Translations under genes and position numbers: made by a program
NCBI RefSeq assembly: GCF_918698095.1
Contig: NZ_CAKKLY010000020.1
Location: forward strand, 1-32,000
Direction: 5' to 3'
DNA length: 32,000 nt
Source of the DNA: Arthrobacter sp. Bi83
GTDB taxonomy: Bacteria; Actinomycetota; Actinomycetes; Actinomycetales; Micrococcaceae
The notes under the pieces: generated by a model
Database searches by the model: none
Told to the model about the DNA's origin: nothing
What the model saw: only the letters and a program-made list of their open reading frames with translations
Part shown: positions 2,971 through 32,000 of the stretch, piece by piece
How positions within the stretch are numbered: position 1 is the stretch's first letter
Layout: each line of letters starts with the position of its first letter

Positions 2971-3348
2971 ACGCTCTCTCACTTCCTGCTGTCTTTTCCC
3001 AACGCTCTCTCACTTCCTGCCGTCTTTTCCCAAACGCTCTCTCACTTCCTGCCGTCTTTTCCCAAACGCTCTCTCACCCGGTGAGAGAGCGTTTGGGTTT
3101 TTGGTGCGGTAGGTGAGAGAGCGTTTGGGTTTTTGGTGCGGTAGGTGAGAGAGCGTTTGGGTTTTTGGTGCGGTAGGTGAGAGAGCGTTTGGGTTTTTGG
3201 TGCGGTAGGTGAGAGAGCGTTTGGGTTTTTGGTGCGGTAGGTGAGAGAGCGTTTGGGTTTTTGGTGCGGTAGGTGAGAGAGCGTTTGGGTTTTTGGTGCG
3301 GTAGGTGAGAGAGCGTTTGGGTTTTTGGTGCGGTAGGTGAGAGAGCGT
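2971..3348. repeat. Inverted tandem-repeat array A: 4 forward plus 9 reverse copies of core ACGCTCTCTCAC/GTGAGAGAGCGT at 32-bp period
   Basis: Forward core copies start at 2971, 3002, 3034 and 3066. Reverse copies start at 3081, 3113, 3145, 3177, 3209, 3241, 3273, 3305 and 3337. The reverse unit GGTGAGAGAGCGTTTGGGTTTTTGGTGCGGTA is essentially perfect. The array fills the convergent gap between the ppc stop (2950) and the ABC ATPase stop (3359). Confidence 0.95.
3061..3102 (+). terminator. Intrinsic terminator candidate for ppc at the inversion point of array A
   Basis: Perfect 17-bp stem, CCCAAACGCTCTCTCAC (3061-3077) with GTGAGAGAGCGTTTGGG (3081-3097). Loop is 3 nt, followed by TTTTT (3098-3102). 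Confidence 0.7.
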
Positions 3349-3358
3349 CGTGGCGGGG

Positions 3359-4117
3359 TCAGGGGTGGTCGCCGTATGCCGGGCCGTAGTGCACCACGAT
3401 GGTCCGGCGGCGCGTGTCATCGTCGGCATAGGTGACTGTGCTCAGCGGCACGCCGTAGAGGTCGGATAGCGCCGAGTCCGTGAGCAGCTCCGAAGCCTGA
3501 CCAGTCCGGGCGCCGCTGCGGCCCAGGAGGACCACGCGGTCTGCGAGCTGCAGGGCATGGTCGGGGTGGTGGGTGCTGAGCAGCAGGGCCATTCCGCCGG
3601 CCATCAGTTCGCGCAGGAGGGTCAGGACCCGGACCTGATTTTTCAGGTCAAGGCCCGTAGCGGGCTCGTCCAGCACCAGGACGGGGGAGCCGGATGCGAT
3701 CGCCCGCGCGATGAGAATCAGCTGTTGCTCGCCGCCGCTTAGGGTGGGGAACAACCGGTCCCGCAGGTCGCCGGCGCCCACGCGTTCCATCGCCTCCGCG
3801 GCAGCTGCCCGGTCCGCAGACCCCGGTGTCCGGAAGACACTTACATGCCTCGCCCGTCCCATCAGAACCATGTCCAGCGCGCGGTAGGCGAAGGCGCTGC
3901 CGTGGGCCTGCGGCACGTATCCGGCGCTTTCGGTGCGGCGGACCGTTCCCTCTGCCGGTGCGAGCAGCCCGGCGGCACAGCGCACCAGGGTGGTCTTGCC
4001 GCTGCCGTTGGGTCCGAGCACTGCGGTGGCCGTGCCGGCCGGCACCCGGAAACTGACGTTCCGAAACAGCCACTCCTTCGCCGTGTAGCCGAAGCCCACC
4101 CGCTCCAGTTCAAGCAC
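3359..4117 (-). CDS. ABC transporter ATP-binding protein (FecE/BtuD-like)
   Basis: Walker A GPNGSGKTT, signature LSGGEQQ, Walker B VLVLDEP, H-loop STHHPD. Start is placed at GTG 4117 (VLELERVGF...), overlapping the permease stop (4110-4112) by 8 nt. The longer ORF-track start at 4174 would add a non-conserved extension overlapping the permease. Confidence 0.9.
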   Translation of the reverse strand: MLELERVGFGYTAKEWLFRNVSFRVPAGTATAVLGPNGSGKTTLVRCAAGLLAPAEGTVRRTESAGYVPQAHGSAFAYRALDMVLMGRARHVSVFRTPGSADRAAAAEAMERVGAGDLRDRLFPTLSGGEQQLILIARAIASGSPVLVLDEPATGLDLKNQVRVLTLLRELMAGGMALLLSTHHPDHALQLADRVVLLGRSGARTGQASELLTDSALSDLYGVPLSTVTYADDDTRRRTIVVHYGPAYGDHP

Positions 4118-5249
4118 TGTCCCAGATCCTTTCCCGGTTCCGGCGCAGAAGCAGGAAGAAGGCGGGCGCGCCAATCAGGGCGGTGAGCACTCCCAGCGGA
4201 ATCTCGCCGGCAGTCGCGGTCCGGGCAAGTGTGTCGACCAGGACGATGTAGGCCCCGCCCAGCAGGAAGGACACGGGCAGCAGTACCCTGTGGTCCGGTC
4301 CCACCCACATCCGGGCAAGGTGCGGAACCACCAGGCCCACCCAGCTCACTGCACCGCTGACAGCAACCGCCCCGGCCACGATCAGCGCTACCGCGACCAG
4401 CACAACCCAGCGCAGCGGACCGGGCTGTACCCCCAGGGCGGCGGCGTCGTCGTCGCCCAGTGAAAGCACGTTGATGCGCCAGCGCAATAGCAGGAGTATC
4501 GCGGCGCCACCCAGGACGGGGACCAGCGCCACCAGGACCTTCGTGAACGTGGCTGTGGCAACGCTGCCAAGCAGCCAGAAGACGATGGCCGGCAGGGTGG
4601 TGTTGGGGTCCGCGATGTAGGTGACCAAAGCGACCAGGGCGGAGAAGAACGACCCCGTGACCACCCCGCCGAGCACGATCATCAGCATCGGGGTTCCTGC
4701 CCGGCCCGAGGTGATCAGGAACAGCGTGGCGAGGGCAACCAGGCCAAAAACGAAGGAACCGGCGACCAGCAGGAACGTGCCCAGGCCGAGCAGCAAAGCC
4801 AGGGAACCGCCGAAGGACGCGCCGGCGGAAACCCCGATGATTTCCGGGCTGACCAGCGGATTGCGGAAGATGGCCTGCAGGGCCGCGCCCCCGATCGCCA
4901 GGCCGCCGCCCACCAGCAGGGCGAGCAGGATCCGCGGCATCCGCACGAGCAGAACGACATTCTGCTCCGTGCCGCTTGCCTCGGTGGGGAACGGAACGAG
5001 CTGGGCACCGAGGATCTGGACGACATGCCCCACCGGCACGCTGTACCGGCCGGCTGCCAGTGCCAGCAGTCCTGCGGCTGCCAGGAAAACGGCGGTAAGC
5101 GCGATGGGCCCGAAGATGGCAGGTTCGCGGCGCCGGTCGAGGGGACCCCGCCCCGATGCCTTCCGGTCAGCCCGCAGGCGGCGGCTGTTCAGGCCCCTGC
5201 GGTTCAGGCCCCTGCGGTTAAGGCGCGGAGTCCTCGCTTCATCCAGCAT
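4110..5249 (-). CDS. ABC transporter permease, FecCD/BtuC family
   Basis: 379-aa polytopic hydrophobic protein with many Gly/Ala/Leu-rich helices, sitting between a Peripla_BP_2-like binding protein and the ATPase. ATG 5249 overlaps the binding-protein stop. The N-terminus is Arg-rich and contains a 15-bp tandem duplication. Confidence 0.85.
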   Translation of the reverse strand: MLDEARTPRLNRRGLNRRGLNSRRLRADRKASGRGPLDRRREPAIFGPIALTAVFLAAAGLLALAAGRYSVPVGHVVQILGAQLVPFPTEASGTEQNVVLLVRMPRILLALLVGGGLAIGGAALQAIFRNPLVSPEIIGVSAGASFGGSLALLLGLGTFLLVAGSFVFGLVALATLFLITSGRAGTPMLMIVLGGVVTGSFFSALVALVTYIADPNTTLPAIVFWLLGSVATATFTKVLVALVPVLGGAAILLLLRWRINVLSLGDDDAAALGVQPGPLRWVVLVAVALIVAGAVAVSGAVSWVGLVVPHLARMWVGPDHRVLLPVSFLLGGAYIVLVDTLARTATAGEIPLGVLTALIGAPAFFLLLRRNRERIWDSA

Positions 5250-6574: not shown

Positions 6575-7348
6575 ATGGTTATCGACGGTGCCCAATTGTT
6601 TGTCCGCTATGCCTACCCGCCGAATTCGCGCGGCAGCTGCGGGCCCCCGGACAGTGACGCACTCCTTCACTACGGCCAGTCTGGCGTGACCGACGAGGGC
6701 CTGCGCGAATTGGCCAAGGGCTTCGCGGGGGCGTGGCCTTACCTGGAATTGATCGCCGGCTCCCATGGCATACCGGACCCGCTGGACGCCCGCGTCGTCG
6801 AGGCGTATTGGGTGGGCAACAGCCTGCTGGACTCCGTGGGCATCACCAACATCGGCAACTCCATGGAAGACCGCTTCCGTGCACGCACGGGCAGGCAGTT
6901 CCCGCACCTTGTGGAAGGCGTTCTGGCCGGCGGAGTACCGCACCACAGTTTCCATGTCTTCGAGATCTACCCGTGGTTGGGTCTGCTCCGCGATGACCGC
7001 CGGTACGCCACAGCGTTGCACGTGCTGGACCGGTGCCGGATCCGGTGGGGTGAGGTGCTGGCTGTCACCGGCGACGACGCAGTAGTGCGTACCTGGCCGC
7101 TGTCATGGGATGGAACGACGCTGGATGTGGGCGGCCCGGAGGTGGAGTCGGCCAAGTATGCCGTAAACGGCACCGGCTTCGTGGCGGGCCTCGCGGCAGG
7201 GGACGTGGTGTCACTCCACTGGGATTGGGTGTGCGACCGCCTCAGCCCGCATCAGCTGCAGCAGTTGAAGTACTTCACAGCCCGCCACCTCAAGATTGCG
7301 AACAGCGGCGTGGAGCACCGTGGCGCAGCAATAGCGCTGGAGCGGTAG
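6575..7348 (+). CDS. Conserved hypothetical protein, hydrogenase-neighbourhood family (recalled as DUF6390-like, unverified)
   Basis: 257 aa from ATG 6575, preceded by GAAGGTGG. The sequence begins MVIDGAQLFVRYAYPPNSRGSCGP, contains HHSFHVFEIYPW and ends near LHWDWVCDRL. High GC3. The ORF-track start at 6362 overlaps the divergent binding-protein gene and looks non-coding. Confidence 0.7.
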   Translation: MVIDGAQLFVRYAYPPNSRGSCGPPDSDALLHYGQSGVTDEGLRELAKGFAGAWPYLELIAGSHGIPDPLDARVVEAYWVGNSLLDSVGITNIGNSMEDRFRARTGRQFPHLVEGVLAGGVPHHSFHVFEIYPWLGLLRDDRRYATALHVLDRCRIRWGEVLAVTGDDAVVRTWPLSWDGTTLDVGGPEVESAKYAVNGTGFVAGLAAGDVVSLHWDWVCDRLSPHQLQQLKYFTARHLKIANSGVEHRGAAIALER

Positions 7349-7461
7349 AACTGCCTCAGCGTTGCGGATAGCACTGCGCCCGGCGTACAGCGCCCTGCGG
7401 CGGCAACCGGACGTAGGCATGGTCCGGACGTAGACATGGTCCTGGCGGCAGATGCCGAAAG

Positions 7462-10332: not shown

Positions 10333-11030
10333 GGGACCAGGCTTCCTGCCACACCGTCTCCGGCCGCGCCGTCGCCCGGCACCCGGGCGGCCGCGCCGTC
10401 GCCCGGCACCCGGGCGGCTGCAGTAGCCAGCAGGCTTTCGACGGCGGCATCCCACGATGTGAGGCCGCGTGCGGACTTGTACTGCGCCAGGGCGGCCAGC
10501 ACGTCCCGGTCCAGCCGGACCCAGCCGGCATTCGGGAAATACTGGTCCATCAGCCGGCGCCAGGCATCCACAGGCAGCCGGTAGGAAGCCTCGCGGTCCC
10601 AGGGCACTTGTTCTACGCCGAACCCCGTCTGCCCCTTGGTGAAGACGGTGCCGGAGAACAGCAGCTCCAGCGGAATTTCGCCCTCGCGGAGGGCATGCAG
10701 GTACTTGGCCGCGGCAACGTCGAAGTCAAAGGTGCAGGGCAGCGGCAGGTCGAATTCGGTGCTCCCCGTGAAGCCCTGCACCATGGTGCTGCATTGCATC
10801 CAGAGGAAGGACTTGAGGGTTGTGGGCCACCGGCCGCGGCCGCCGAAAAGGTCGAGCAGCCCTTGCTCTTCTTCGTCCGCGTACCCGCGGCGCTGCGGGA
10901 GAATGCGGACCTGGCACCGCAGGGCGATGGCGTGCACGGCGGCCCCGGTGACCTCGGTCAGCCGCAGCCGGGCTGTAAGTTGTGGTGCCGCCGCGTACGG
11001 CTCGGGCCGGATATCAACGACGGCGAACAT
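10329..11030 (-). CDS. Conserved hypothetical protein (recalled as DUF6084-like, unverified)
   Basis: 233 aa from ATG 11030 (MFAVVDIRPEPYAAAPQLTARLRL...), 8 nt after the upstream stop (11039-11041). The C-terminus carries a perfect 27-bp tandem duplication (AARVPGDGA twice). Confidence 0.8.
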   Translation of the reverse strand: MFAVVDIRPEPYAAAPQLTARLRLTEVTGAAVHAIALRCQVRILPQRRGYADEEEQGLLDLFGGRGRWPTTLKSFLWMQCSTMVQGFTGSTEFDLPLPCTFDFDVAAAKYLHALREGEIPLELLFSGTVFTKGQTGFGVEQVPWDREASYRLPVDAWRRLMDQYFPNAGWVRLDRDVLAALAQYKSARGLTSWDAAVESLLATAAARVPGDGAAARVPGDGAAGDGVAGSLVP

Positions 11031-15633: not shown

Positions 15634-16518
15634 TCAATGTGCGTCTGTCAGAGATTCAGTCAAGGGGTCTGACCGGGATGTCGAACCGTCCAACCAGCCG
15701 TACCAGGCAGCCAGGCCTTCGCCGGTGGCGGCCGAGACGGTCAGGAATTCGGCCCGCGGGTTGACCTGCCGGATGCGGCGCAGGCACTCGTCGACGTCGA
15801 AATCGACATAGGGGAGCAGGTCCGACTTGTTGACGATCACGAGGTCGGCTGCCATGAACATGTGCGGGTATTTCTGCGGTTTGTCATCACCTTCCGTTAC
15901 CGAAACGACCACGACCTTGGCAGTTTCGCCAAGGTCGAAAAGAGCTGGGCAAACGAGGTTGCCCACGTTTTCAATAAAGACTGTGGAGCCGGTTTCCGGG
16001 TCCAGGGCGTCCAGTCCGCGCCGGAGCATGTCGGCATCGAGATGGCAGCCGGCCCCGGTGTTGATCTGGATGACCGGACGGCCCACTGCGCGGATCCGGT
16101 CAGCATCCAGGGACGTTTCCTGGTCCCCTTCAATGACGCCGGCCTGCAAGTGCTCGCCCAGGTCCGTGAGCGTGCGGACCAGGAGCGTTGTCTTGCCGGC
16201 GCCGGGCGAACTCATGACGTTGAAGGCCCGGATTCCGCGGCCGGCAAGCCAGCCGCGATTCCTTGCCGCCAGCAGGTCATTCTTGGCCAGCAGGTTCTGT
16301 TCGAGTGAGATGGTCTCAGGGTGGCAGAGGGCATGCTGATGGCCGGGGTGTTCGTGCTCGTGGCCATGCTCATGCTCGTGCTCGTGCTCGTGCTCGCGTT
16401 CGTGCTCGTGGCTGTGCCCGTGCTGATGCGGATGCTCATGCCCGTGGGTGTGGTGGGGTTCCTCGAGGGTTGAGACCCTGGTGTTCGCCTCATCGCCGCA
16501 GCCGCATGTTGTACACAT
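15634..16518 (-). CDS. hypB: Hydrogenase nickel-incorporation GTPase HypB with His-rich tract
   Basis: N-terminal MCTTCGCG (CxxCGC high-affinity Ni site) and a roughly 45-aa His/Glu-rich tract. P-loop SSPGAGKTTLL; also ENVGNLVCP and the NKSD G4 motif. Confidence 0.95.
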   Translation of the reverse strand: MCTTCGCGDEANTRVSTLEEPHHTHGHEHPHQHGHSHEHEREHEHEHEHEHGHEHEHPGHQHALCHPETISLEQNLLAKNDLLAARNRGWLAGRGIRAFNVMSSPGAGKTTLLVRTLTDLGEHLQAGVIEGDQETSLDADRIRAVGRPVIQINTGAGCHLDADMLRRGLDALDPETGSTVFIENVGNLVCPALFDLGETAKVVVVSVTEGDDKPQKYPHMFMAADLVIVNKSDLLPYVDFDVDECLRRIRQVNPRAEFLTVSAATGEGLAAWYGWLDGSTSRSDPLTESLTDAH

Positions 16519-20305: not shown

Positions 20306-20494
20306 CGTCAAGGCTCCGTTGTTGCAGGGTCCCGCATTCAGTAGAAGGGCCGGACTCCGGCACGTCAAGCCCTGCCGGTGTCCATGGCCGCGCCCGCTTC
20401 ACGACCTTGGCGCGCGGCTCTTCGCCACTGCCCTTCGCCACTGCCCTTCGCCACCGCTCTTCGCCACTGCCCGCTGCAGTGTCACACTGGCTGC

Positions 20495-22249: not shown

Positions 22250-22945
22250 ATGTTGGATATCGAAGTGATTGAGGATCCCTCAGCGGCCGAGGCTTCGCTG
22301 GATCCCATCCGCACGCGCATCCTCTGTGAGCTCGCAGAGCCGGGGTCCGCCACGCAGCTTGCAGGCAAGGTGGGGCTGCCGCGGCAGAAGGTGAACTACC
22401 ACCTCAAGGCTCTCGAGCGGCACGGCCTGGTGGAGCTCGTGGAGGAGCGCCGCAAGGGCAATGTCACCGAGCGGGTGCTGCAGGCCACGGCCGCATCGTA
22501 CCTGATCTCACCGGCGGCGCTGGCCTCCGTGGCGCCGGACCCGCACAGGTTCTCGGACCGCTTCTCGGCCTTTTGGCTGCTGGCGCTCGCCGGCCGCATG
22601 GTCCAGGAAGTCGGCAAGCTTATCGCCGGTGCTGCCGCGGCCAGGCAAAAGCTCGCCACGTTCGCGATCGACGGCGAGATCACGTTCCGTTCCGCCGCGG
22701 AGCGTGCGGCCTTCGCCGAAGAGCTCGGTGTCGCTGTCACACGGCTCGTGGACAAGTATCACGACGGCGGTGCTGCCGCCGGCGCACGCAGTGCGGCCTC
22801 GGGCGGGGGCGGACGAAAGCACCGGCTCGTCGTCGCGCTCCATCCGACGCTCAAGCCGGCCGAACCAACATTGGCGGAGCCCAGCCCGGCCACCACCACA
22901 GGCATAACCGCAACATCACCAGCTAAGGAGCAGGACAATGACTGA
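22250..22945 (+). CDS. ArsR-family winged-helix transcriptional regulator
   Basis: ATG 22250 is preceded by GGAGG. wHTH region SATQLAGKVGLPRQKVNYHLKALERHGLV. The stop overlaps the downstream start by 8 nt. Confidence 0.85.
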   Translation: MLDIEVIEDPSAAEASLDPIRTRILCELAEPGSATQLAGKVGLPRQKVNYHLKALERHGLVELVEERRKGNVTERVLQATAASYLISPAALASVAPDPHRFSDRFSAFWLLALAGRMVQEVGKLIAGAAAARQKLATFAIDGEITFRSAAERAAFAEELGVAVTRLVDKYHDGGAAAGARSAASGGGGRKHRLVVALHPTLKPAEPTLAEPSPATTTGITATSPAKEQDND

Positions 22946-23630
22946 CGACCGCGAATTCGAGATTGTTTTCGACACCGAACTGCCTGGCACTCCGGAGCGT
23001 GTCTGGGAGGCCGTCACCAAGGACACCCCGGCGTGGATGTTCCCCACGGACCAGTGGCCCGCTGTCCGCACGGTCGACGAATACCCCGGCCACCTCGTGA
23101 CGCGCATGGTCGGGCCGGACGGCTGGTTCAACCAGCTGGAGCACGTGCTGGAACCGCTCGACGGCGGTCGCACCAAACTCCACTATGTCCACAGCGGCAT
23201 CTTCGTGGACAACTGGGATGAACAGTATGACGGCGCCAGCAAGCACACCGAGTTCTACCTGCACACCCTGGGGCAGTACCTCAGGCACTTCGACGGCAGG
23301 CCGGTGGTGTTTACGGACGTGCAGGCGCCCGCGTCCTCGCAGACGCCGGACGGCTTTATGCAGCTGAAGAAAGCGCTCCGTGTGGAAGGCTCGTCCGCGG
23401 GCGATGCGGTGGAGACAGAGCTCGACGGCGTGGGGCGGTTGTCGGGGGAAGTGGACTTCTCCAATGAGCACTTCCTCGGCCTGCGTACCGGGAACGCCCT
23501 GTACCGGTTCTTCGGCCGCAACTCCTTCGGCGCGCCGGTTGGCATGACTGTGCACGACTTCAGCGGCAGCGGCGATTCCGAGGCCACGGCCGCAGCCTGG
23601 GGCGGCTTCCTGGCCAGGGTCTACGCCTAG
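22938..23630 (+). CDS. SRPBCC/AHSA1-domain protein
   Basis: 230 aa. AAGGAG lies 7 nt upstream. The N-terminus (FEIVFDTELPGTPERVWEAVTKDTPAWM) is typical of Aha1-like SRPBCC proteins, which commonly pair with ArsR regulators. Confidence 0.75.
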   Translation: MTDDREFEIVFDTELPGTPERVWEAVTKDTPAWMFPTDQWPAVRTVDEYPGHLVTRMVGPDGWFNQLEHVLEPLDGGRTKLHYVHSGIFVDNWDEQYDGASKHTEFYLHTLGQYLRHFDGRPVVFTDVQAPASSQTPDGFMQLKKALRVEGSSAGDAVETELDGVGRLSGEVDFSNEHFLGLRTGNALYRFFGRNSFGAPVGMTVHDFSGSGDSEATAAAWGGFLARVYA

Positions 23631-23658: not shown

Positions 23659-23907
23659 ACGCCCTCTCACTTCCTGCGGCTTAAACCGGAACGCTCTCTC
23701 ACCTCCTGTCGCTGAAACCGAAACGCTCTCTCACGCGGTGAGGGAGCGTTCCGGTTTCGTGCGTGAGGTGAGAGAGCGTCGGCCCGGATCGTGCGTGAGG
23801 TGAGAGAGCGTCGGCCCGGATCGTGCGTGAGGTGAGAGAGCGTCGGCCCGGATCGTGCGTGAGGTGAGAGAGCGTCGGCCCGGATCGTGCAGGAGGTGAG
23901 AGAGCGT
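23659..23907. repeat. Inverted tandem-repeat array B: 3 forward plus 6 reverse copies of the array A core at 32-bp period
   Basis: Forward cores start at 23659 (ACGCCCTCTCAC, degenerate), 23691 and 23723. Reverse cores start at 23738 (GTGAGGGAGCGT), 23768, 23800, 23832, 23864 and 23896. The reverse unit is GGTGAGAGAGCGTCGGCCCGGATCGTGCGTGA. Lies between the SRPBCC stop (23630) and the MocR stop (23925). Confidence 0.95.
23716..23760 (+). terminator. Hairpin at the inversion point of array B (weak intrinsic terminator candidate)
   Basis: A 19-position stem pairs 23716-23734 with 23738-23756, with one G-U pair and one mismatch. Loop is GCG. Only a short T-run (the terminal TT of the right arm, 23755-23756, plus T 23757) is present, so the T-tract is weak. 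Confidence 0.4.
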
Positions 23908-23924: not shown

Positions 23925-25409
23925 TCACGCGATGGCTGCGGCCGGGGAGTCCTTGAGTGTTCTGCGCAGCTGCGGGGCCGCGTCCAGCCGCTCTTGGGCG
24001 GAGCGTAAAGCCAGGACGGCCGTTTCGAGCTTGTCCGGCGGCAGGGTGAACGGCACGCGGAGATGGTTCTCAAAGACGCCGCCCACGCCGAAGCGCGGGC
24101 CGGCCGCGAGCCGGATGCCGAACTCGGGCGCGATAACGGTCAGTGCCGTGCTGCTGGCGGCGGGCAGCCGGCACCAGACGGCCAGGCCGCCGGAGGGCCG
24201 TTCAGGCTGCCACTGCGGCAGGTGCGCCCGCAGCAGATCCAGCAGCGCGGCGCGGCTTTCCCTCATCGCGTCCAGCCGGGCCGGCAGGGGCTCTGTGAGG
24301 GTGCGCACCAGATGGGCGGCCGCCAGCTGCTCCACCACCGGTCCGCCCAGGTCCATGGTGGTCCGGGCGGCGGCGAAGCGCTGGATCAGGCTTTCTGACG
24401 CGCGGATCCAGCCGGTACGCAATCCTGCCCAGTGAGACTTGCTCAGTGATCCGATGGAAACCACCGCGGGGCTGAAGGAAGCGAGCGGCGCCGCGGTCCC
24501 GCCGTCGAGGTTCAACTCACGGAGGGTTTCATCCGCCACCAGGACCGTGCCGGACGCGGTGGCGGCGCGGACCAGCCGGCGGCGCTGGGCGTCGGACATG
24601 AGCCGGCCGGTGGGGTTGTGGAAGTCGGGGACCATGTAGGCCAGTCTGGGGCGCTGCTGCATCAGCGCTGCCTCCACGGCGTCCAGGTCCCACCCCATTT
24701 CAGGTGTGGGACGCAGGGCCACCGGAACCATCCGGCAGCCCGTTGCCCGGATGGCATCGAGGGCGTTCGGATAGGTGGGGTGCTCCACCAGCACCTTGTC
24801 CTGCCTGCCCACAATGGCACGCAGCACGATGTTCAGCGCATGTTGCGCACCGGACGTCACCAGGATCTGGGCGGGCGTGGTGGATACCCCGACGGCGGTG
24901 TACCGGCCGGCGATTGCCTCCCGGAGCGCGGGGACGCCCAGTGCGTCATAGCCGAAACCAGGCAGCAGTGCCGGCAGCTCGGTCAGGGCGGCAGCAAACG
25001 CCCGGTGCACTACTTCGCCGCTGGCCGGGAGGGAGGCGTAGGCCAGGTCGATGACACCGTCGGGGACTGCGAGTCCCGGCGCGCCCGACAGTCCCGCGCG
25101 GGCTGCTGCTTCGGTCCCGGGAGCACGGTCCGAGCTGCTGGGCAGGCAGGTGCGTCCGCGGGTGCCCTGGCCGCTGCTGAGAAAGCCCTGCTCGCGCAGG
25201 CTTGAATAGGCCGCTGTCACGGTGGTGCGGCTCACGGCCAGAGTCGCGGCCAGCGTCCGCTCGCTCGGGAGCGCGGTTCCCAGCGGAATGCGTCCGTCCA
25301 GGACGAGGAGGCGGACGACGTCGGCCAGCTCGCGGTAGGCGGGTGTGGCACCGAGGTGCCACTGGCCCAGAAGGCGCGCGAGGGCCGTGGGGCTGAGGGA
25401 TCCGGACAT
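23925..25409 (-). CDS. MocR/PdxR-type regulator (GntR wHTH fused to a fold-type I aminotransferase domain)
   Basis: 494 aa. N-terminal LPSERTLAATLAVSRTTVTAAYSSLREQGFL and a C-terminal aminotransferase-like domain with SLSKSHWAGLRTGW (PLP-lysine context). Confidence 0.88.
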   Translation of the reverse strand: MSGSLSPTALARLLGQWHLGATPAYRELADVVRLLVLDGRIPLGTALPSERTLAATLAVSRTTVTAAYSSLREQGFLSSGQGTRGRTCLPSSSDRAPGTEAAARAGLSGAPGLAVPDGVIDLAYASLPASGEVVHRAFAAALTELPALLPGFGYDALGVPALREAIAGRYTAVGVSTTPAQILVTSGAQHALNIVLRAIVGRQDKVLVEHPTYPNALDAIRATGCRMVPVALRPTPEMGWDLDAVEAALMQQRPRLAYMVPDFHNPTGRLMSDAQRRRLVRAATASGTVLVADETLRELNLDGGTAAPLASFSPAVVSIGSLSKSHWAGLRTGWIRASESLIQRFAAARTTMDLGGPVVEQLAAAHLVRTLTEPLPARLDAMRESRAALLDLLRAHLPQWQPERPSGGLAVWCRLPAASSTALTVIAPEFGIRLAAGPRFGVGGVFENHLRVPFTLPPDKLETAVLALRSAQERLDAAPQLRRTLKDSPAAAIA

Positions 25410-26223: not shown

Positions 26224-27147
26224 TCAGGCCCCGCCGGTTCCAAGCAGGGGCTGGCACTTGGGGCAGAAGTAGATGTCGCGCTCCTCGGTCACCAGGTCCG
26301 GCGCCAAACGCGGAGCGCCCGACTTCGACGCGGTGGATGCGGGCGTGGCTGACCCGGGCGCACCGCCGCGCGGCACGCTCTTGCCCAATACCCCGTGGCG
26401 GATTGGAGTCCGGCAGCGAAGGCACGGCTGGTGTTCACGCCGGTAGACCCAGTACCCCGGACGGCCCGCAGCCCGGCCCACCGGCGTCCCGCGCGCGTTG
26501 AGCACGGTAGTCCGGCGGCCCGGGCCGAGGTTGGCCTCGAGAAGCTGCTTCGCATCTGCGAACATGGCGGGCAGATCCGCCGCGGCCGCGACTGGCGAGG
26601 CCGGGTGGATTCCTGCGAGGAAGCACACCTCGCAGCGATAGATGTTGCCGATGCCGGCAAGGTTGCGCTGGTCCAGGAGGGCGACGCCGATCGGCACCTC
26701 GGGCGCTGAAGCCACGCGCCGCTCCGCCTCGGCCGGATCCCAGCCAGGGCCCAGCAGGTCCGGCCCCAGATGCCCCACGGCCCTGTCCTCCTCGGACGTC
26801 CGGATGACCTCAAGCAGTCCGAGGGAGAAGCCGACGGCGTCTGCCGCGGGAGTGCGGAGCACGCACCGGGCGGTGAATCCCGGTTTCCGCCACCGGCCGC
26901 CGGGCGGGTAGACCTGCCAGCTGCCCTCCATCTTGAGGTGCGAATGGATGGTCAGCCGTTCCTCGGCCGGACTGACCAGGCGCATGAGCAGGTGCTTGCC
27001 CCGCGGCACCACTTCTTCCATGGTCCAGCCCTGAAGGTTCAGCGTGGCGAAGCGCGGCACGCGGAAGTCCGAGGCGATGAGTTTCTGGCCGGCCAGGGCG
27101 CCGTGCAGCTGGTTGGCGGCCCGCCACACGGAATCGCCCTCAGGCAC
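26224..27147 (-). CDS. nei: Fpg/Nei-family DNA glycosylase (endonuclease VIII, Nei2-like)
   Basis: N-terminal (M)PEGDSV with catalytic Pro2, PRGKHLL, H2TH region LLDQRNLAGIGNIYRCEVCF, and a C-terminal CxxC...CxxC zinc finger. GTG 27147 overlaps the lhr stop by 8 nt. Confidence 0.88.
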   Translation of the reverse strand: MPEGDSVWRAANQLHGALAGQKLIASDFRVPRFATLNLQGWTMEEVVPRGKHLLMRLVSPAEERLTIHSHLKMEGSWQVYPPGGRWRKPGFTARCVLRTPAADAVGFSLGLLEVIRTSEEDRAVGHLGPDLLGPGWDPAEAERRVASAPEVPIGVALLDQRNLAGIGNIYRCEVCFLAGIHPASPVAAAADLPAMFADAKQLLEANLGPGRRTTVLNARGTPVGRAAGRPGYWVYRREHQPCLRCRTPIRHGVLGKSVPRGGAPGSATPASTASKSGAPRLAPDLVTEERDIYFCPKCQPLLGTGGA

Positions 27148-30100
27148 GGATCCTCAGTCCTTTCGGGGTGGAGTAGGCGCCGGCCGCCGTCAGCGCCACT
27201 GCGGCCGGCGTGTCCAGGATGCCGTGGCCGTTGACCTTTTCCATAACAAGCTTGTCCACGGCTCCGCGCTTCACGACGTCGACGAGGGCCGCGCCGGCCG
27301 CGGCAAGGACGGGTTCGTCTTCGGTGAAGACGAGGAGTGTCTTGCCGCCGCGTTCGACGTAAAGTGACAGGGCGCCGTCCACCAGGACGACAAGGGCCCC
27401 CGCCTTGCGGCCCGGACGGTGCCCGCTGCCCGCTTCCACGCTCAGGGCCGGCCAGGACAGTGCGGCACCGTACGGGTTGGCAGGGTCAGTGGCGGCCAGG
27501 GCCAAGGCCACCGGCTCCGGCTTGGCCAGCTGTGTGTCCTCGGAGTATGAGCGCAGGCGGTCCACCGTGGCCGGCACGGCGAACTGGGCCGCGCCGAGGT
27601 GTTCGATGAAGTAGCCGCGCCGGCAGCGTCCGGCTTCCTCGAGCCTGGCCAGCACCTTGTACATGAGTCCGAATCCGCCCAGGATGTTCTCCGCCATGAC
27701 CGAGCCGCGGGTGACCACGCCGTACCTGTCCAAAAGCAGCTCCGCGATGGCGCGCGCGTGGATCGTGGGATCGAGCTCCGGGGACGGCAGAGCAGACCAC
27801 CGCCCGGCTGCCAGCGGCGGAGTAGGAGCCGAACCGGTGACTGAGCCGTACCGTCCGCCGGCCAGCCCAGGAGAGCCCAGCAGTCCCGTGCCGTGTGACC
27901 GTCCCAGCCGGCTCATCCGCGGAGCCCGTGATCGGGGTGCCCTGGCTACCTGGCGGTGGGCAGTGTGCCCGCCGGCGATGAGTGACCGTACGGGCGCGAA
28001 CGTGTCGCCGGTGACCCTGCCGGCCCATGCAAGGTCCCACAGCGCGGAGACGACGTCCTGGTCGCTGAGAACTGCATCCATTCCGCCGGCAATGTCCGTC
28101 AGCTGGCGGAAGAAATAGCCGCCGCCGTTGGTCTGCAAATGGTCCAGCAGCCGCTGCTGGGCGTCGCCGGGCTCAAAGTCGATCGCCGGATTCAGCGTCA
28201 GTTCCGCGGAGTCGGCCAGATGCAGGCTGACCCAGCCGTCATTGCCGGGGAGGGAGCCGGCACCGGACCAGAGGACCTCGCCCGCGGCCATGAGCTCGTC
28301 CAGCATGGCTGGCTGGTAGTTGGATACCCGGCTGGCCAGCACCAGGGGTTCCCAGGCCGACGCCGGAATGGGCACGCCGGACAGCTGATCGATGGCCGTG
28401 ACGATGCCGTCCAGGCCGCGCAGGGCGGGCTGGCCGCGGCCGGCCCCGGGGGCGCGGACGTTTTGCCAGGCGGGCAGGAACCGCCCGTACGCAGTGGCGT
28501 CCACCGGCTCCACCTCGGCGCGCAGCGCGGCGAGGGAACGGCGGCGGAGCTTGCGGAGTACCTCGGCGTCGCACCATTCGCTGCCGGCCGGGCCAATGAT
28601 GATTGCCGGTGCGGCAGCGTCCTCGGCAGGGGACGGCTCCGCCGGGGGCTCGACCTCGGCCGCGATCGCAGCATCAGGAGCCTGGGCAGGGCCGGCGCTT
28701 TGACCTTGGGTTACGGGGCCTGTGGTCAGGCTCGCAACCTGCTCGACGTGGGGCCGGAACTCGCCCTCCACCACGCGGCCGTCGGCGGCGAGCCTCTTCA
28801 GTGCCGTGCCGACGACGGCGACACCAAGTCCCAGCCTTGCAGCGGCCTCCGCAGCGGTAAACGGACCGTGCGTGCGCGCGTAGCGTGAGACGAGGTCGCC
28901 CAAGGGATCCGCCACCGGCTCAATGAAGGCAAGGGGCACGCCCATCGGCAGGGGGACCCCGATGGCGTCCCGCAGCCGGGCTGCATCTTCCACCGCGGCA
29001 AATCTCTCGGTGCCGCCGATGCTCACCTTGATGGCGCGGTTCGCGCGCTGGAGGGCGGCGAGGTGCGCGACGGCGTCCGTCAGAGGAGGCTCGGTGGCCC
29101 GGGTTTCGACGGGCTCAACCAGCGAGGTTTCGACGGGCTCAACCAGCGAGGTTTCGACAGGCTCAACCAGCGCGGTTTCGACGGGCTCAACCAGCGGGCT
29201 GGCGACCTGGGTTTCGACGGGCTCAACCAGCGGGCTGGCGACCTGGGTTTCGACGGGCCCAACCGGCGCGGTTTCGACGGGCTCAACCGGCGGAGCCAGC
29301 CTGGCCGCCACCTCTTCCGGCGACAGCGGACCGAGCAGCCGCAGGAGGTCGGCGACGCCTTCGAGTCCGCGGACTTTCCGGTCGGCGGCCAGGCGCTGCA
29401 GTTCCAGCTCCGTGCCCTCAATGACCCTGGCATCCAGCAGTTCCCGCAGTTCTACGCGGCCCAGCAGTTCGTTGAGCAGGGTGGAATCGAGCGCCAGCGC
29501 GGCGGCCCGGCGCTCGGCCAGAGGGGAGTCGCCTTCGTAAAGGAACTGTGCCACGTACCCGAACAACAACGACTTGGCGAACGGCGAAGGCTGCTGGGTG
29601 GTGGTCTGCACGATCCTGAGCTCACGGCGTTCCACGGACGCGGCGATTTCTTTCAGGGCCGGCAGATCGTAGACATCCTGAAGGCATTCGCGGACAGTTT
29701 CCAGCACGATCGGGAAGGTCGGGTATTTCCGGGCGACGTCGAGCAACTGGGCGGACCGCTGGCGCTGCTGCCACAGCGGCTGCCGCTTGCCCGGAGTCTG
29801 TCGCGGCAGCAGCAGGGCGCGGGCTGCACATTCGCGGAAGCGGGAGGCGAACAGGGCGCTGCCGCCCACTTCGGCCGTCACGATCTGTTCGAGCTCCTCC
29901 GGGTCGAACAGGAACAGTTCGGCCCCGGGCGGTTCGTCCTCCATCATCGGAACGCGCAGCACGATGCCGTCGTCCGCGGCCATGGCGGAGCCGTCCAGGC
30001 CGTAGCGCTGGTGAAGCCGCTGGCCCACGGCCAGTGCCCACGGCGCATGCACGGGCATCCCGAAGGGGCTGTGGAGAATGACACGCCAGTCGCCGAGTTC

Positions 30101-32000
30101 ATCGTGGAAGCGTTCCACCACGAGGGTGGTGTCACTGGGCACCACTTCGGTGGCCAGCTTCTGCTCGCTGAGGTACTGCAGCAGGTTGTTGGCGGCGAAG
30201 TCGTCGAGGCCGCTGGCCTTGCAGCGGTCGGTGGCAGGGCCGACGTCGGACGCTGACAGTTCCCGGACGAACGCGCCGAGGGCGCGGCCCAGGTCGACCG
30301 GCCGGCCCAGGGAGTCCCCTTTCCAGAACGGGAGCTTCCCCGGCTGGCCGAAAGCGGGGGAGACAAGCACGCGGTCGTGGGTGATGTCCTCGATCTTCCA
30401 GCTCGTGGCACCGAGGGCGAAGATGTCGCCGACCCGGGACTCGTAGACCATCTCCTCGTCGAGTTCGCCAACGCGCCGCCCGCCCTTGGCCGGGGACGGT
30501 GTGCCGGACGCTCTGCCATCCGCGCCTGGTCCGGCGGGTGAGGCCGCACCCTCCGACTCGGTGCCGATGATGTACACGCCAAACAGGCCCCTGTCCGGGA
30601 TGGTCCCGCCGGACGTGACGGCAAGCCGCTGTGCTCCGGGCCTGCCCTCGATGGTCCCGGCGTTCCGGTCCCAGATAATCCGCGGACGAAGTTCGGCGAA
30701 TTCATCGGAGGGATAACGGCCTGCCAGGAGGTCCAAGGTGGCCTCGAAGGCGGAGCGGGGGAGAGTGGCGAACGGCGCCGAACGCCGTACGGTGGCGAAC
30801 CACTCCTCGACGTCGATGCTGCCAAGCGCGGTGGCCGCAACCGTCTGCTGGGCCAGGATGTCCAGCGGATTGGCCGGAACGCTGAGCCGCTCGATTTTTC
30901 CGCCGAGCATCCGCTCCACGGTGATGGCCGTATGGACGAGGTCCGCCCGGTGCTTCGGAAACAGGACGCCCTGCGAGACTTCGCCCACCTGGTGCCCGGC
31001 GCGGCCCACGCGCTGCAGCCCGCTGGCCACCGAGGGTGGCGATTCCACCTGGACCACGAGGTCAACGGCGCCCATGTCGATGCCGAGTTCCAGCGATGAC
31101 GTGGCCACGACGCAGCGCAGCCGTCCGGACTTCAGATCGTCCTCGATCAGTGCCCGCTGGTCCTTTGACACGGAGCCGTGGTGGGCCCTGGCGAGCAGCG
31201 GCTCGGCGCCTGCGGTGCTCCCGGCCTGGGCCATCATGTGTGCCGGCGTGCCCGTGGACGTCGGGACGCCCCCGGACAGTGCCGGCACCGGGTCCTCCCA
31301 GCCGCCGCCCCCGACGGCCAGGAGCTGCCGTTCGGCGTGGATCTCATTCAGCCGTGCGGTCAGCCGCTCCGCGAGCCGCCGCGAGTTGGCAAAAACAATG
31401 GTGGACTGGTTGGCCAGCACCAGGTCCACGATTTTCTCCTCCACGTGCGGCCAGATGGAGGCCTGGGGCTGCAGCCCCGAGGCAGGGCCGGAGTCGAAGG
31501 CGCCGGCGGCGCCCTGGAGGTCAGACATGTCCTCCACCGGGACTGACACTGTGAGGTCCCAGTTCTTGCGGGAAGGGGGTGCCACGATCTCCACCGGGGC
31601 GGAGCCGGCCAGGAACTGCGCCACGAGCTCCCGTGGCTCTACTGTGGCGGAGAGTCCAATCCGCTGGGCCGGCGTGGGCAGCAGTGCATCAAGCCGCTCC
31701 AGCGACACCGCGAGGTGGGCGCCCCGCTTGGTGCCGGCCACGGCATGGACCTCGTCCACGATGATGGTGTCCACCTCGCTGAGCGTTTCCCGGGCCTTGG
31801 AGGTAAGCATGAGGAACAGTGATTCCGGGGTGGTGATGAGGATGTCCGGCGGGTTGCTGAGCAGGGCCCGCCGGTCGGATGCGGGGGTGTCCCCGGACCT
31901 GACGCCCACGGTGATGAGCGGCGCAGGGAGGTCCAGGCGCTTGGCTGTCTGCGTAATGCCGATGAGGGGTGAGCGGAGGTTGCGTTCGACGTCGACGCCA
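27140..32000 (-). CDS. lhr: Lhr-type large ATP-dependent DNA helicase (5' end outside the window)
   Basis: Helicase motifs IIVDEVHAV, GLSATV, HHGSVS and QRVGRAGH, plus a long C-terminal domain. The frame stays open from 31909 to the window edge (hand translation GVDVERNLRSPLIGITQTAKRLDLPAPLITVGVRSG...). Confidence 0.9.
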   Translation of the reverse strand, partial: GVDVERNLRSPLIGITQTAKRLDLPAPLITVGVRSGDTPASDRRALLSNPPDILITTPESLFLMLTSKARETLSEVDTIIVDEVHAVAGTKRGAHLAVSLERLDALLPTPAQRIGLSATVEPRELVAQFLAGSAPVEIVAPPSRKNWDLTVSVPVEDMSDLQGAAGAFDSGPASGLQPQASIWPHVEEKIVDLVLANQSTIVFANSRRLAERLTARLNEIHAERQLLAVGGGGWEDPVPALSGGVPTSTGTPAHMMAQAGSTAGAEPLLARAHHGSVSKDQRALIEDDLKSGRLRCVVATSSLELGIDMGAVDLVVQVESPPSVASGLQRVGRAGHQVGEVSQGVLFPKHRADLVHTAITVERMLGGKIERLSVPANPLDILAQQTVAATALGSIDVEEWFATVRRSAPFATLPRSAFEATLDLLAGRYPSDEFAELRPRIIWDRNAGTIEGRPGAQRLAVTSGGTIPDRGLFGVYIIGTESEGAASPAGPGADGRASGTPSPAKGGRRVGELDEEMVYESRVGDIFALGATSWKIEDITHDRVLVSPAFGQPGKLPFWKGDSLGRPVDLGRALGAFVRELSASDVGPATDRCKASGLDDFAANNLLQYLSEQKLATEVVPSDTTLVVERFHDELGDWRVILHSPFGMPVHAPWALAVGQRLHQRYGLDGSAMAADDGIVLRVPMMEDEPPGAELFLFDPEELEQIVTAEVGGSALFASRFRECAARALLLPRQTPGKRQPLWQQRQRSAQLLDVARKYPTFPIVLETVRECLQDVYDLPALKEIAASVERRELRIVQTTTQQPSPFAKSLLFGYVAQFLYEGDSPLAERRAAALALDSTLLNELLGRVELRELLDARVIEGTELELQRLAADRKVRGLEGVADLLRLLGPLSPEEVAARLAPPVEPVETAPVGPVETQVASPLVEPVETQVASPLVEPVETALVEPVETSLVEPVETSLVEPVETRATEPPLTDAVAHLAALQRANRAIKVSIGGTERFAAVEDAARLRDAIGVPLPMGVPLAFIEPVADPLGDLVSRYARTHGPFTAAEAAARLGLGVAVVGTALKRLAADGRVVEGEFRPHVEQVASLTTGPVTQGQSAGPAQAPDAAIAAEVEPPAEPSPAEDAAAPAIIIGPAGSEWCDAEVLRKLRRRSLAALRAEVEPVDATAYGRFLPAWQNVRAPGAGRGQPALRGLDGIVTAIDQLSGVPIPASAWEPLVLASRVSNYQPAMLDELMAAGEVLWSGAGSLPGNDGWVSLHLADSAELTLNPAIDFEPGDAQQRLLDHLQTNGGGYFFRQLTDIAGGMDAVLSDQDVVSALWDLAWAGRVTGDTFAPVRSLIAGGHTAHRQVARAPRSRAPRMSRLGRSHGTGLLGSPGLAGGRYGSVTGSAPTPPLAAGRWSALPSPELDPTIHARAIAELLLDRYGVVTRGSVMAENILGGFGLMYKVLARLEEAGRCRRGYFIEHLGAAQFAVPATVDRLRSYSEDTQLAKPEPVALALAATDPANPYGAALSWPALSVEAGSGHRPGRKAGALVVLVDGALSLYVERGGKTLLVFTEDEPVLAAAGAALVDVVKRGAVDKLVMEKVNGHGILDTPAAVALTAAGAYSTPKGLRIRA
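29102..29293 (-). repeat. Intragenic tandem repeat in lhr encoding (L/P)VEPVET units
   Basis: GGTTTCGAC recurs at 29102, 29126, 29150, 29174, 29210, 29246 and 29270, giving 24-bp and 36-bp units. It encodes PPVEPVETAPVGPVETQVASPLVEPVETQVASPLVEPVETALVEPVETSLVEPVETSLVEPVET. Confidence 0.9.

What the first reader, a model, noticed from the sequence alone, without database searches (positions are those of the whole stretch)
23659..23907. Array B: second locus with the same core, period and polarity but different 20-bp filler, implying a dispersed element family
Array B lies about 20 kb from array A, in another convergent gap (SRPBCC gene versus MocR gene), and the architecture recurs. There are 3 forward cores, an imperfect hairpin (23716-23756), then 6 reverse cores at 32-bp spacing. 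The 12-nt core GTGAGAGAGCGT is identical to array A. The remaining 20 nt of each unit (CGGCCCGGATCGTGCGTGAG versus TTGGGTTTTTGGTGCGGTAG) are unrelated, yet the unit length is still exactly 32 bp. Both arrays begin soon after a plus-strand stop codon and end 10-17 bp before a minus-strand stop codon. A conserved core and period with locus-specific filler argues for selection or a mechanism acting on the core and its spacing. Candidates are a REP/BIME-like element, a phased protein-binding array, or a templated amplification process. Random slippage does not explain it well. I do not recognise this element from described repeat families.
Basis: seen in the sequence. Interest (0 to 1): 0.7.

Follow-up and report, generated by a model that had tools for sequence, protein, structure and literature searches.

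The report
Arthrobacter 32-bp gene-end repeat family
Array B is one copy of an apparently undescribed family of 32-base repeat arrays that sit just after genes in Arthrobacter-type soil bacteria, point the same way as the gene, and most likely help end or protect its transcript.

Summary
Array B (23659-23907) has 3 cores ACGCTCTCTCAC, a central hairpin, then 6 inverted cores. Array A (2971-3348) has the same build. The 12-mer occurs 22 times against 0.27 expected by chance.

A genome scan hit its 120-locus limit, and every hit lies in the Arthrobacter, Pseudarthrobacter and Paenarthrobacter group. Spacing is exactly 32 bp in 256 of 271 distinct intervals. The opposite polarity never occurs (68 to 0).

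- The conserved block is about 19 nt, and the filler has a family consensus, so it is not "unrelated".
- Each arm reads ACGC..CAC in the sense of the gene whose stop codon lies about 17 nt away (119 of 155 arms).
- Sense arms are C-rich, G-poor, unstructured RNA.
- In two-armed arrays the T-run stays on one strand, giving a hairpin plus U-run facing a gene end.
- Copy number varies between species. Array B is absent from the same gap in relatives, whereas the array A site is conserved.

Most likely this is a lineage-specific, REP/BIME- or MIRU-like gene-end element acting in transcription termination or 3'-end formation, with local expansion by slippage. The function is inferred, not shown. 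I found no description in Rfam or the searchable literature.

The parts
23659..23734 (+). Array B, left arm. Three units ACGC(C/T)CTCTCAC plus 20 nt, in the sense orientation for the SRPBCC gene that ends at 23630.
   Evidence: Period 32.
23715..23757 (.). Array B, central hairpin. The innermost cores plus 8 nt on each side form a stem of about 20 bp with 2 non-Watson-Crick positions and a GCG loop. There is no separate U-tail; TTT lies inside the stem end.
   Evidence: sequence. (MFE -152 and -138 kcal/mol, z -5.5 and -6.0). Not listed by the terminator scan.
23738..23907 (-). Array B, right arm. Six cores GTGAGAGAGCGT on the + strand, that is, the sense orientation for the minus-strand MocR-type gene that ends at 23925. 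The first interval is 30 bp, then four of 32 bp. Three identical units are followed by one variant.
22938..23630 (+). SRPBCC/AHSA1-type gene. Its stop lies 28 nt upstream of array B.
   Evidence: names given by sources. No Pfam hit.
23925..25409 (-). GntR plus aminotransferase (MocR-type) regulator gene. Its stop lies 17 nt beyond array B.
2971..3077 (+). Array A, left arm. Four cores, in the sense orientation for PEP carboxylase (101-2950).
3061..3102 (+). Array A, central hairpin: 17-bp stem, 3-nt loop, followed directly by TTTTT. It is the best terminator-like site in the window.
3081..3348 (-). Array A, right arm. Nine cores with 8 identical 32-bp units, in the sense orientation for the minus-strand ABC-ATPase gene (3359-4174).

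Best explanation
Array B is a member of a dispersed intergenic repeat family specific to the Arthrobacter group of Micrococcaceae.

Unit. The building block is a 32-nt unit. Read in the sense of the neighbouring gene it is ACGCTCTCTCAC-TT(AA/CC)YGC-NSS-(T-run)-NSSSSR. Units are laid head to tail, starting about 17 nt after a stop codon and preceded by a short C-rich leader.

Two arms. Where two genes converge, or where a second arm is present, an oppositely oriented arm meets the first, and the innermost cores form a GC-rich hairpin of 12-20 bp.

Proposed mechanism (inferred). The element is a transcription 3'-end module.
- The sense arm gives a stretch of at least 64-100 nt of C-rich, G-poor, unstructured RNA, the kind of substrate on which Rho loads.
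- The inverted cores give a strong hairpin. In about half of the arrays it is followed by a U-run on the strand of an upstream gene, which would act as an intrinsic terminator, a pause site or a 3'-end protecting structure.

Shown here: copy number within a locus changes by tandem duplication and deletion (slippage or unequal recombination). Elements are gained at new gene ends (array B) and can persist at a site across species (array A).

The confidence of 0.5 is for the whole statement including the mechanism. That array B belongs to a dispersed family is close to certain.
For: Family and period. The period is 32 bp in 172 of 188 arms. The polarity rule holds 68 to 0.

Orientation. The outer side of an arm faces a gene 3' end in 119 of 155 cases (p about 1e-11), a median of 17 nt after the stop. 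The inner side of single arms shows no bias, 19 to 20.

RNA properties. Sense arms fold weakly: array A arms have MFE 0 to -0.2 kcal/mol over 76 nt. Across the family the median is -12.2 against -25.9 kcal/mol for random 76-nt windows, and the C/G ratio is 2.5. The leader is C-rich.

Hairpin and U-run.
- The array A hairpin is the best terminator-like site in the window.
- In two-armed arrays the T-run lies on the same strand in both arms in 22 cases and is palindromic in 6, although single arms carry T in the sense strand 87 to 15.
- A T-rich tail follows the stem on exactly one strand in 26 of 52 arrays, and that strand faces a gene 3' end in 20 of 21 scorable cases.
- Transition mismatches beside the stem are G.U on the T-run strand 21 times and A.C 3 times.

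Other hairpins. Single arms are often followed by an unrelated strong hairpin. In relatives that lack array B, the same convergent gap holds other palindromes. That fits a terminator niche.

Evolution. The core after ppc is kept in four species while the spacer diverges. One orthologous locus in 7 species keeps the array with different fillers and copy numbers. Copy numbers of 12+3 against 2, and the amplification of a mutated core, show local expansion.
Against: There are no transcript data, so termination, Rho dependence and RNA stability are all inferred.

Array B itself has no U-tail and is not called by the terminator scan. Only half of the two-armed arrays have a T-rich tail within 2 nt of the stem.

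A generic rut site or hairpin needs no invariant 12-mer and no exact 32-nt period. The strong sequence and length constraint therefore suggests a specific recognition that this model does not explain.

A lone sense core is conserved in a 29-bp gap with no hairpin partner (L132).

The G.U signal may partly reflect T-richness of that strand.

Gene calls came from a crude GC3-based caller. The loci were ascertained through exact core pairs, which inflates apparent core conservation.
Confidence: 0.5

Rival explanations
1. A selfish, non-autonomous mobile element (REPIN- or MITE-like) is copied to new gene ends by an unidentified enzyme acting in trans. It has no host function. Orientation and position only reflect where insertions are tolerated.
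For: Array B is present in the window strain but absent from the same gap in five relatives. These include Arthrobacter sp. ISL-5, which carries family arrays elsewhere.

A discrete 101-bp '2+2' form with a conserved 13-nt loop occurs at 24 independent loci.

Fillers at unrelated loci can be 18-19 of 20 identical.
Against: No target-site duplication is visible at array B, although the flanks are too diverged to be sure.

No transposase or recombinase lies between or beside the arms. The intervening genes are DUF559, GH16 and DoxX.

The family is not found on plasmids, phages or viral contigs.

The two arms of one array are no more alike than random family members, which argues against simple inverted duplication of a mobile unit.

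The site after ppc is conserved across species.
Confidence: 0.2
2. A phased DNA-level array: repeated asymmetric binding sites for a nucleoid-associated protein, for gyrase, or for a polar roadblock or terminator protein. One site and one A-tract occur every three helical turns, placed at gene ends to handle supercoiling or to stop polymerases.
For: The period is fixed at 32 bp, close to 3 x 10.6.

The core is near-invariant, non-palindromic and 12-19 nt long.

The A/T run keeps the same strand through both arms, 22 to 6.

Inner-core spacings fall into classes of 15-17, 25 and 35-37 bp, about 10.5-bp steps.

A lone conserved core exists without a hairpin partner.

From established knowledge: E. 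coli BIMEs bind gyrase and IHF.
Against: Single arms carry the T-run on the sense strand 87 to 15, and arms are oriented with the upstream gene 119 to 36. Both point to a strand-specific process linked to transcription.

The spacing classes are dominated by one subfamily, so the helical-phase statistic is not informative.

No candidate protein has been identified.
Confidence: 0.15
3. A CRISPR-like or other small-RNA-producing array.
For: There is a regular repeat of fixed length with a conserved part and a variable part.
Against: The variable part is identical from unit to unit within an arm, so there are no spacers. The units are only 32 nt. The arrays meet head to head. There are roughly a hundred or more per genome at gene ends. 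The ten flanking window ORFs checked against Pfam include no cas family. Rfam gives no match.
Confidence: 0.02
4. A chance resemblance, or independent local slippage at two loci, with no family.
For: Units within an arm are identical, as slippage would give.
Against: The 12-mer occurs 22 times against 0.27 expected. There are 120 or more loci in about 60 genomes with the same core, period and polarity.
Confidence: 0.01

Closest known systems
REP/BIME elements of enterobacteria and REPINs of Pseudomonas
   Same: High-copy, extragenic and lineage-specific. Concentrated at gene 3' ends and in convergent gaps. Form hairpins. Occur in clusters of variable copy number. Proposed roles in termination, mRNA stabilisation and protein binding.
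   Different: The unit here is not itself a palindrome. Units are head to tail within an arm, with a single switch of orientation, rather than alternating. The period is exactly 32 bp. No RAYT has been identified.
MIRU (mycobacterial interspersed repetitive units) and other intergenic VNTRs of Actinobacteria
   Same: An actinobacterial host. Tandem head-to-tail units in intergenic regions. The same orientation as the adjacent gene. Copy number varies between strains or species.
   Different: MIRU units are 46-101 bp, lie within operons and carry short ORFs overlapping stop and start codons (my knowledge of Supply et al. 1997, not checked here). Here the unit is 32 bp, not a multiple of 3, and arrays have two opposed arms forming a hairpin.
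BOX elements of Streptococcus pneumoniae
   Same: A modular intergenic element in which an internal module is tandemly repeated a variable number of times. The whole element can fold into a stem-loop.
   Different: BOX has three distinct modules (A, B, C), of which only boxB repeats. Here one unit type builds both arms. There is no sequence relationship.
Conserved-sequence terminator hairpins (TRIT of Mycobacterium tuberculosis; inverted DUS pairs of Neisseria) and ordinary intrinsic terminators
   Same: A conserved sequence reused as the stem of hairpins just after stop codons, often between convergent genes. The array A centre is a canonical stem plus T-run.
   Different: Those are single hairpins without tandem 32-bp arms. 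Many members here, array B included, lack a proper U-tail. DUS function in DNA uptake, which was not tested here.
Rho utilisation (rut) sites
   Same: The sense arms are C-rich, G-poor and unstructured over 64-160 nt just downstream of a stop codon.
   Different: rut sites are not sequence-conserved, repetitive or of fixed period. Rho dependence is untested.

Membership tests
REP/BIME | The unit is itself an imperfect palindrome of about 20-40 nt | tested here: not met
   Sense units fold with MFE 0 to -0.2 kcal/mol (array A) and z > 0. There is no intra-unit pairing covariation.
REP/BIME | Many copies, extragenic, dispersed on the chromosome | tested here: met
142 arrays of 2 or more cores in 120 blocks of 8 kb or less, and 2 arrays in the 32-kb window. 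All lie between predicted genes.
REP/BIME | Clusters made of units in alternating orientation | tested here: not met
   Units are head to tail within arms. There is one orientation switch per array, always rc-core then forward core.
REP/BIME | A cognate RAYT (Y1 transposase) gene flanked by the repeats | not testable with these tools
None was seen in the roughly 1 Mb of loci inspected around arrays, but this was not searched systematically.
MITE | Terminal inverted repeats with a target-site duplication and a discrete length | tested here: inconclusive
   A discrete 101-bp form occurs at 24 independent loci. No duplication is visible at array B against the empty site in L122, but the flanks are too diverged to be sure.
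CRISPR array | Conserved repeats separated by unique spacers | tested here: not met
   Fillers are identical between successive units.
Intrinsic (Rho-independent) terminator | A GC-rich hairpin followed directly by a U-tract, downstream of a stop codon | tested here: inconclusive
   Met for array A. Array B has the hairpin but no U-tail. Family-wide, 26 of 52 arrays have a T-rich tail, on one strand only.
Intrinsic (Rho-independent) terminator | Transcript 3' ends map to the site | not testable with these tools
   No transcript data are available.
MIRU-type intergenic VNTR | Tandem intergenic units, co-oriented with the flanking gene, with variable copy number | tested here: met
   orientation; copy number from 1 to 12 or more at orthologous sites.
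MIRU-type intergenic VNTR | Unit of 46-101 bp carrying a short ORF that overlaps neighbouring stop and start codons | tested here: not met
   The unit is 32 bp, not a multiple of 3. The definition is taken from my own knowledge.
Rho utilisation site | About 70 nt or more of C-rich, G-poor, unstructured RNA after the stop codon | tested here: met
   C/G ratio 2.5. Median MFE -12.2 against -25.9 kcal/mol for background. 66% of arms are weaker than the 95th percentile of background.
Rho utilisation site | Termination depends on Rho | not testable with these tools
   Needs bicyclomycin treatment or Rho depletion with 3'-end mapping.

The most novel reading that the evidence does not exclude
The near-invariant, asymmetric core of 12-19 nt, the exact 32-nt period and the strict orientation relative to the upstream gene are read by a dedicated factor, either a protein or an RNA. 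The arrays would then be a sequence-specific, polar gene-end signal peculiar to the Arthrobacter group. That would be a bacterial counterpart of repeated polar terminator boxes such as the TTF-I 'Sal box' arrays, rather than generic hairpins or rut sites.
Probability: 0.12. Interest if true: 0.8.

Novelty: new variant of a known kind. Interest (0 to 1): 0.55.

Why it matters
If the reading is right, a large group of soil actinobacteria marks on the order of a hundred gene ends per genome with one reusable, oriented sequence module.

- It would give a handle on how transcription ends in high-GC Actinobacteria, where canonical terminators are scarce and the division of labour between Rho and hairpins is still debated.
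- It would supply ready-made, tunable terminator parts for Arthrobacter engineering.
- It would provide VNTR markers for strain typing.
- It would explain recurrent contig breaks in draft assemblies of these genera.

The unexplained constraints (invariant core, exact period, non-inverting T-run) could point to a specific recognition factor.

Tried and rejected
- Rfam at gathering score (whole window) and at E <= 1 (array B): nothing except a spurious plant miRNA hit at E 0.057.
- BLAST of array B against plasmid and phage collections, and a pattern scan of viral contigs: no match. The family looks chromosomal.
- Literature: the 12-mer occurs in no relevant paper. Searches for Arthrobacter with REP, MITE, intergenic, tandem or terminator terms found no description. 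The RepRanger paper only lists an Arthrobacter genome in a table. The Renibacterium VNTR paper does not describe this unit.
- Transposase between separated arms: rejected. The intervening genes are DUF559, GH16 and DoxX.
- Intra-unit RNA structure: rejected. There is no covariation, only neighbour-position subfamily effects, and MFE is near zero.
- 'Arms are inverted copies of each other': rejected. The arms of one array are no more similar than random members, except at positions 15-16 and 31-32.
- Helical-phase test of inner-core spacing: not informative, because one subfamily (25-bp spacing) dominates.
- Integron-like 'gene plus 3' arm' cassette idea: rejected. It fits L059 but not L030, where the inserted gene abuts an antisense arm.
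- Two further ortholog look-ups (L135, L136) were not comparable, because ppc is not adjacent there.
- A look-up of the 100%-identical ABC protein found no record.

Full report
**Observation.** Array B is in the sequence as described. Three cores ACGCTCTCTCAC lie on the + strand at 23659 (1 mismatch), 23691 and 23723. A central hairpin spans 23715-23757. Six inverted cores GTGAGAGAGCGT lie at 23738 (1 mismatch), 23768, 23800, 23832, 23864 and 23896. The first right-arm interval is 30 bp and the rest are 32. Array A (2971-3348) has 4 left and 9 right cores of the same build. TRF gives period 32 for all four arms. The 12-mer with up to 1 mismatch occurs 22 times in the window, all within the two arrays, against 0.27 expected. 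Both arrays fill convergent gaps: PEP carboxylase and an ABC ATPase for A, an SRPBCC gene and a GntR/aminotransferase regulator for B. The gaps to the stop codons are 20 and 10 nt for A, and 28 and 17 nt for B.

**Anatomy of the unit.** I oriented all units as ACGC..CAC and made a profile from 285 distinct internal units of related loci. It reads ACGCTCTCTCAC, then Y-T, then AA or CC, then Y-G-C, three variable mostly G/C positions, a four-base run (T in about 70% of units, A in about 20%), five mostly G/C positions, and a purine. The conserved block is therefore about 19 nt. ACGCTCTCTCACTTMMYGC matches every full unit of arrays A and B with at most 2 mismatches, 18 hits against 0.02 expected. 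The rest of the filler follows a degenerate consensus, TTAAYGCGGGTTTTTCGGCG, and fillers at unrelated loci can be 18-19 of 20 identical. The fillers of A and B share 10 of 20 positions in register, so 'unrelated' is too strong. No pair of filler columns covaries like a helix. Tandem sense units are essentially unstructured as RNA: MFE 0 to -0.2 kcal/mol for the two array A arms.

**Census.** One scan of 185,579 species genomes used GTGAGAGAGCGT, a gap of 10-40 nt, then GTGAGAGAGCGT. Every locus comes from Arthrobacter, Pseudarthrobacter, Paenarthrobacter, or MAGs labelled Micrococcaceae, Specibacter or Actinomycetota, about 60 genomes in all.
- Although the gap could vary by 30 nt, 256 of 271 distinct core-to-core intervals are exactly 32 bp and all are 31-33. 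The modal period is 32 in 172 of 188 arms. Longer intervals are mostly near multiples of 32.
- Where both orientations occur within 200 bp, the order is always reverse-complement core then forward core, 68 to 0.
- Besides the ascertained arrays, the 120 blocks of 8 kb or less hold 22 further arrays, and the window holds 2 in 32 kb. By rough inference this means on the order of 100 or more arrays per genome.
- The family was not found in plasmid, phage or viral-contig collections.
- The window itself matches Arthrobacter sp. Bi83 (ABC protein 100% identical). A read-set assembly (ERR7113781) is identical up to the point where its contig breaks inside array B.

**Orientation rule.** I called genes with a simple GC3-based caller. 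The outer side of an arm faces the 3' end of a gene in 119 of 155 cases (p about 1e-11), a median of 17 nt from the stop. For single-armed arrays the ratio is 47 to 12, while their inner side shows no bias, 19 to 20. Each arm thus reads ACGCUCUCUCAC in the sense of the gene it follows. This explains the invariant polarity, and why two-armed arrays are enriched in convergent gaps (19 of 33, against 21% of all adjacent gene pairs). The 10 nt before the first core are C-rich, with C about four times G.

**Features that point to transcription.**
1. Sense arms are C-rich, G-poor and unstructured. The C/G ratio is 2.5, and the median MFE is -12.2 against -25.9 kcal/mol for random 76-nt windows of the same loci. 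Of the sense arms, 66% are weaker than the 95th percentile of background.
2. The innermost cores of two-armed arrays form GC-rich hairpins. The whole of array B folds with z about -5.5 to -6 on either strand. The array A centre (17-bp stem, 3-nt loop, TTTTT) is the best terminator-like site in the window.
3. The A/T run does not invert with the arm. Single arms carry T in the sense strand 87 to 15, but in two-armed arrays the run is on the same strand in both arms 22 times and palindromic only 6 times. One strand therefore reads hairpin then U-run.
4. A T-rich tail within 2 nt of the stem is present on exactly one strand in 26 of 52 arrays and never on both. That strand faces a gene 3' end in 20 of 21 scorable cases.
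5. Transition mismatches in the 5 positions flanking the core stem are G.U on the T-run strand 21 times and A.C 3 times. Inside the core the counts are 6 to 2, which is not significant. This may partly reflect T-richness of that strand.
6. Single arms are frequently followed by an unrelated strong hairpin.

Array B itself has a stem of about 20 bp but no separate U-tail, and the scan does not call it.

**Evolution.**
- *Array B site.* I retrieved the SRPBCC/MocR gap through protein homologues, so the sample is unbiased with respect to the repeat. It carries no family unit in Arthrobacter sp. ISL-5 (90% protein identity), in a second relative at 89%, in Pseudarthrobacter sp. N5, in a JGI metagenome contig, or in Paenarthrobacter histidinolovorans. 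In ISL-5 the gap is 45 bp, the same as the 28 + 17 bp of non-array spacer in the window. The other species hold unrelated palindromes there. ISL-5 has family arrays elsewhere (L014, L081, L091). Array B is therefore most simply a gain in the window lineage.
- *Array A site.* After ppc the element is old. A relative at 80% protein identity has 3+3 units. A. methylotrophus has two sense cores (ACGCTCGCTCAC). A. bambusae has one core in a 29-bp gap. The core sits at the same place while the spacer has diverged.
- *Other loci.* Another locus is occupied in 7 species, with different fillers and 2 to 7 cores. Copy number can differ widely between close relatives: 12+3 against 2, and 5+3 against 2+2. 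A mutated core (ACGG..) has been amplified about 10 times, which shows local tandem expansion.
- *The arms.* The two arms of one array are no more alike than random family members, except for subfamily positions 15-16 and the two positions next to the core. They are not simple inverted copies.
- *Indels between arms.* Gene-sized presence/absence differences lie exactly between the arms in three comparisons: a GH16 gene, a DoxX gene and a small ORF. No transposase is present.

**Mechanism.** The best-supported reading is a gene-end module acting during transcription. A C-rich unstructured sense arm resembles a Rho loading site. It is followed by a strong hairpin, often with a U-run, that would terminate or pause RNA polymerase or protect the 3' end. 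The arms expand and contract by slippage or unequal recombination.
- *Shown:* the anatomy, the family, the period, the orientation, the composition and folding, the strand rule of the T-run, copy-number change, and gain at one site with persistence at another.
- *Inferred:* termination, Rho involvement and RNA stabilisation.
- *Not explained by this model:* why a 12-19-nt sequence and an exact 32-nt period are kept, and why a lone core is conserved without a partner.

These gaps leave room for a specific recognition factor. They also leave room for the two main rivals: a selfish REPIN/MITE-like element, and a phased DNA-binding array with one site and one A-tract per three helical turns.

**Comparison with known elements.** In role and location the family is closest to REP/BIME and REPIN elements, but it fails two defining features: the unit is not palindromic, and orientation does not alternate. 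In host, tandem build, co-orientation with genes and VNTR behaviour it is closest to mycobacterial MIRUs, but the unit length and the absence of an ORF differ, and MIRUs lack opposed arms. It also resembles BOX elements (a repeated internal module) and conserved terminator hairpins such as TRIT. It is not a CRISPR array, because it has no unique spacers. Rfam has no matching family, and the open-access literature searched contains neither the core sequence nor a description.

**Caveats.**
- Loci were ascertained through two exact cores, which inflates apparent core conservation.
- The scan was cut at 120 rows, so counts per genome are rough.
- Gene calls are crude.
- Many source assemblies are short-read drafts in which such arrays collapse or break contigs (L013, L042, L121). 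Copy numbers, including the 9 identical cores of array A, may not be exact.
- The literature search covers only open-access text.

**Verdict.** The element is an apparently undescribed, lineage-specific variant of the intergenic repeat and terminator-hairpin kind. Its function is inferred with moderate confidence.

Noticed in passing
window 29102-29292: Overlapping 24-bp and 36-bp tandem repeats (GGTTTCGACGGGCTCAACCAGCGA and variants, 95-96% matches) lie inside the large Lhr-type helicase gene (27140-31909, minus strand). They are in-frame coding repeats.
   Followed up: no
window 16348-16424, 20420-20472 and 10361-10418: Three other tandem repeats: the hexamer GTGCTC x12.8, the 13-bp unit CTTCGCCACTGCC x4.1 (not a multiple of 3), and a perfect 27-bp unit x2.1. 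They have no relation to the 32-bp family.
   Followed up: no
L003 about 4547-4601; L015 about 205-245; L051 about 7291-7370: A related palindrome built on a shorter core, AACGCTCCTGCA ... TGCAGGAGCGTT, sits at the centre of, or next to, family arms. It looks like the 19-nt motif with an internal deletion and may be a sister subfamily.
   Followed up: partly
L127:3194-3313 (also L123, L126 and L128, same gap): In species that lack array B, the same convergent gap holds unrelated palindromes. In L127 the hairpin is again flanked on both sides by direct repeats of about 19-20 nt of a different sequence. The 'hairpin with tandem arm repeats' architecture may therefore recur beyond this family.
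   Followed up: no
L123:3180-3213: The last 17 bp of the SRPBCC gene, including its stop codon (CCAAGGTCTACGCCTAG), are duplicated in tandem directly after the gene.
   Followed up: no
L030:877-1860 vs L065:3094-3106; L059:2990-3520 vs L009:4330-4397; L040:3766-4171: Gene-sized presence/absence differences (a GH16 gene, a DoxX gene and a small ORF) lie exactly between the two arms of orthologous arrays. The arm junction may be a hotspot for insertion or deletion. No transposase is present.
   Followed up: partly
L130:3274-3285 and L132:3275-3286: At the ppc/ABC gap of A. methylotrophus, the TGA stop codon of the ABC-ATPase gene lies inside the core (G-TGA-GCGAGCGT). In A. bambusae the core starts directly after the stop. 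Both use the variant core ACGCTCGCTCAC.
   Followed up: partly
L020 about 6110, L022 about 6190, L036 about 4580, L043 about 3700: A perfect DnaA-box-like 9-mer (TGTGGATAA / TTATCCACA) is conserved next to the start of a DUF559 gene that lies between two separate family arms in several species.
   Followed up: no
L042:919-1504; L013 end; L121 end: A run of N sits inside an arm of 12 or more units, and contigs end inside arrays. The family breaks short-read assemblies, so published copy numbers are unreliable.
   Followed up: partly
L068:1439-2469 and L025:3476-3976: About 1 kb and 0.5 kb lie between a left arm and a right arm with no convincing ORF of at least 60 codons at high GC3 (none in L068, only one 60-aa ORF in L025). 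The content is unknown.
   Followed up: no
L035:5598-5680: After a two-unit left arm comes a right arm with a degenerate core (GTGAGTGAGGGT, 3 mismatches), still at a 32-bp period. A threshold of 1 mismatch therefore undercounts arms, and some 'single-armed' arrays are really two-armed.
   Followed up: no
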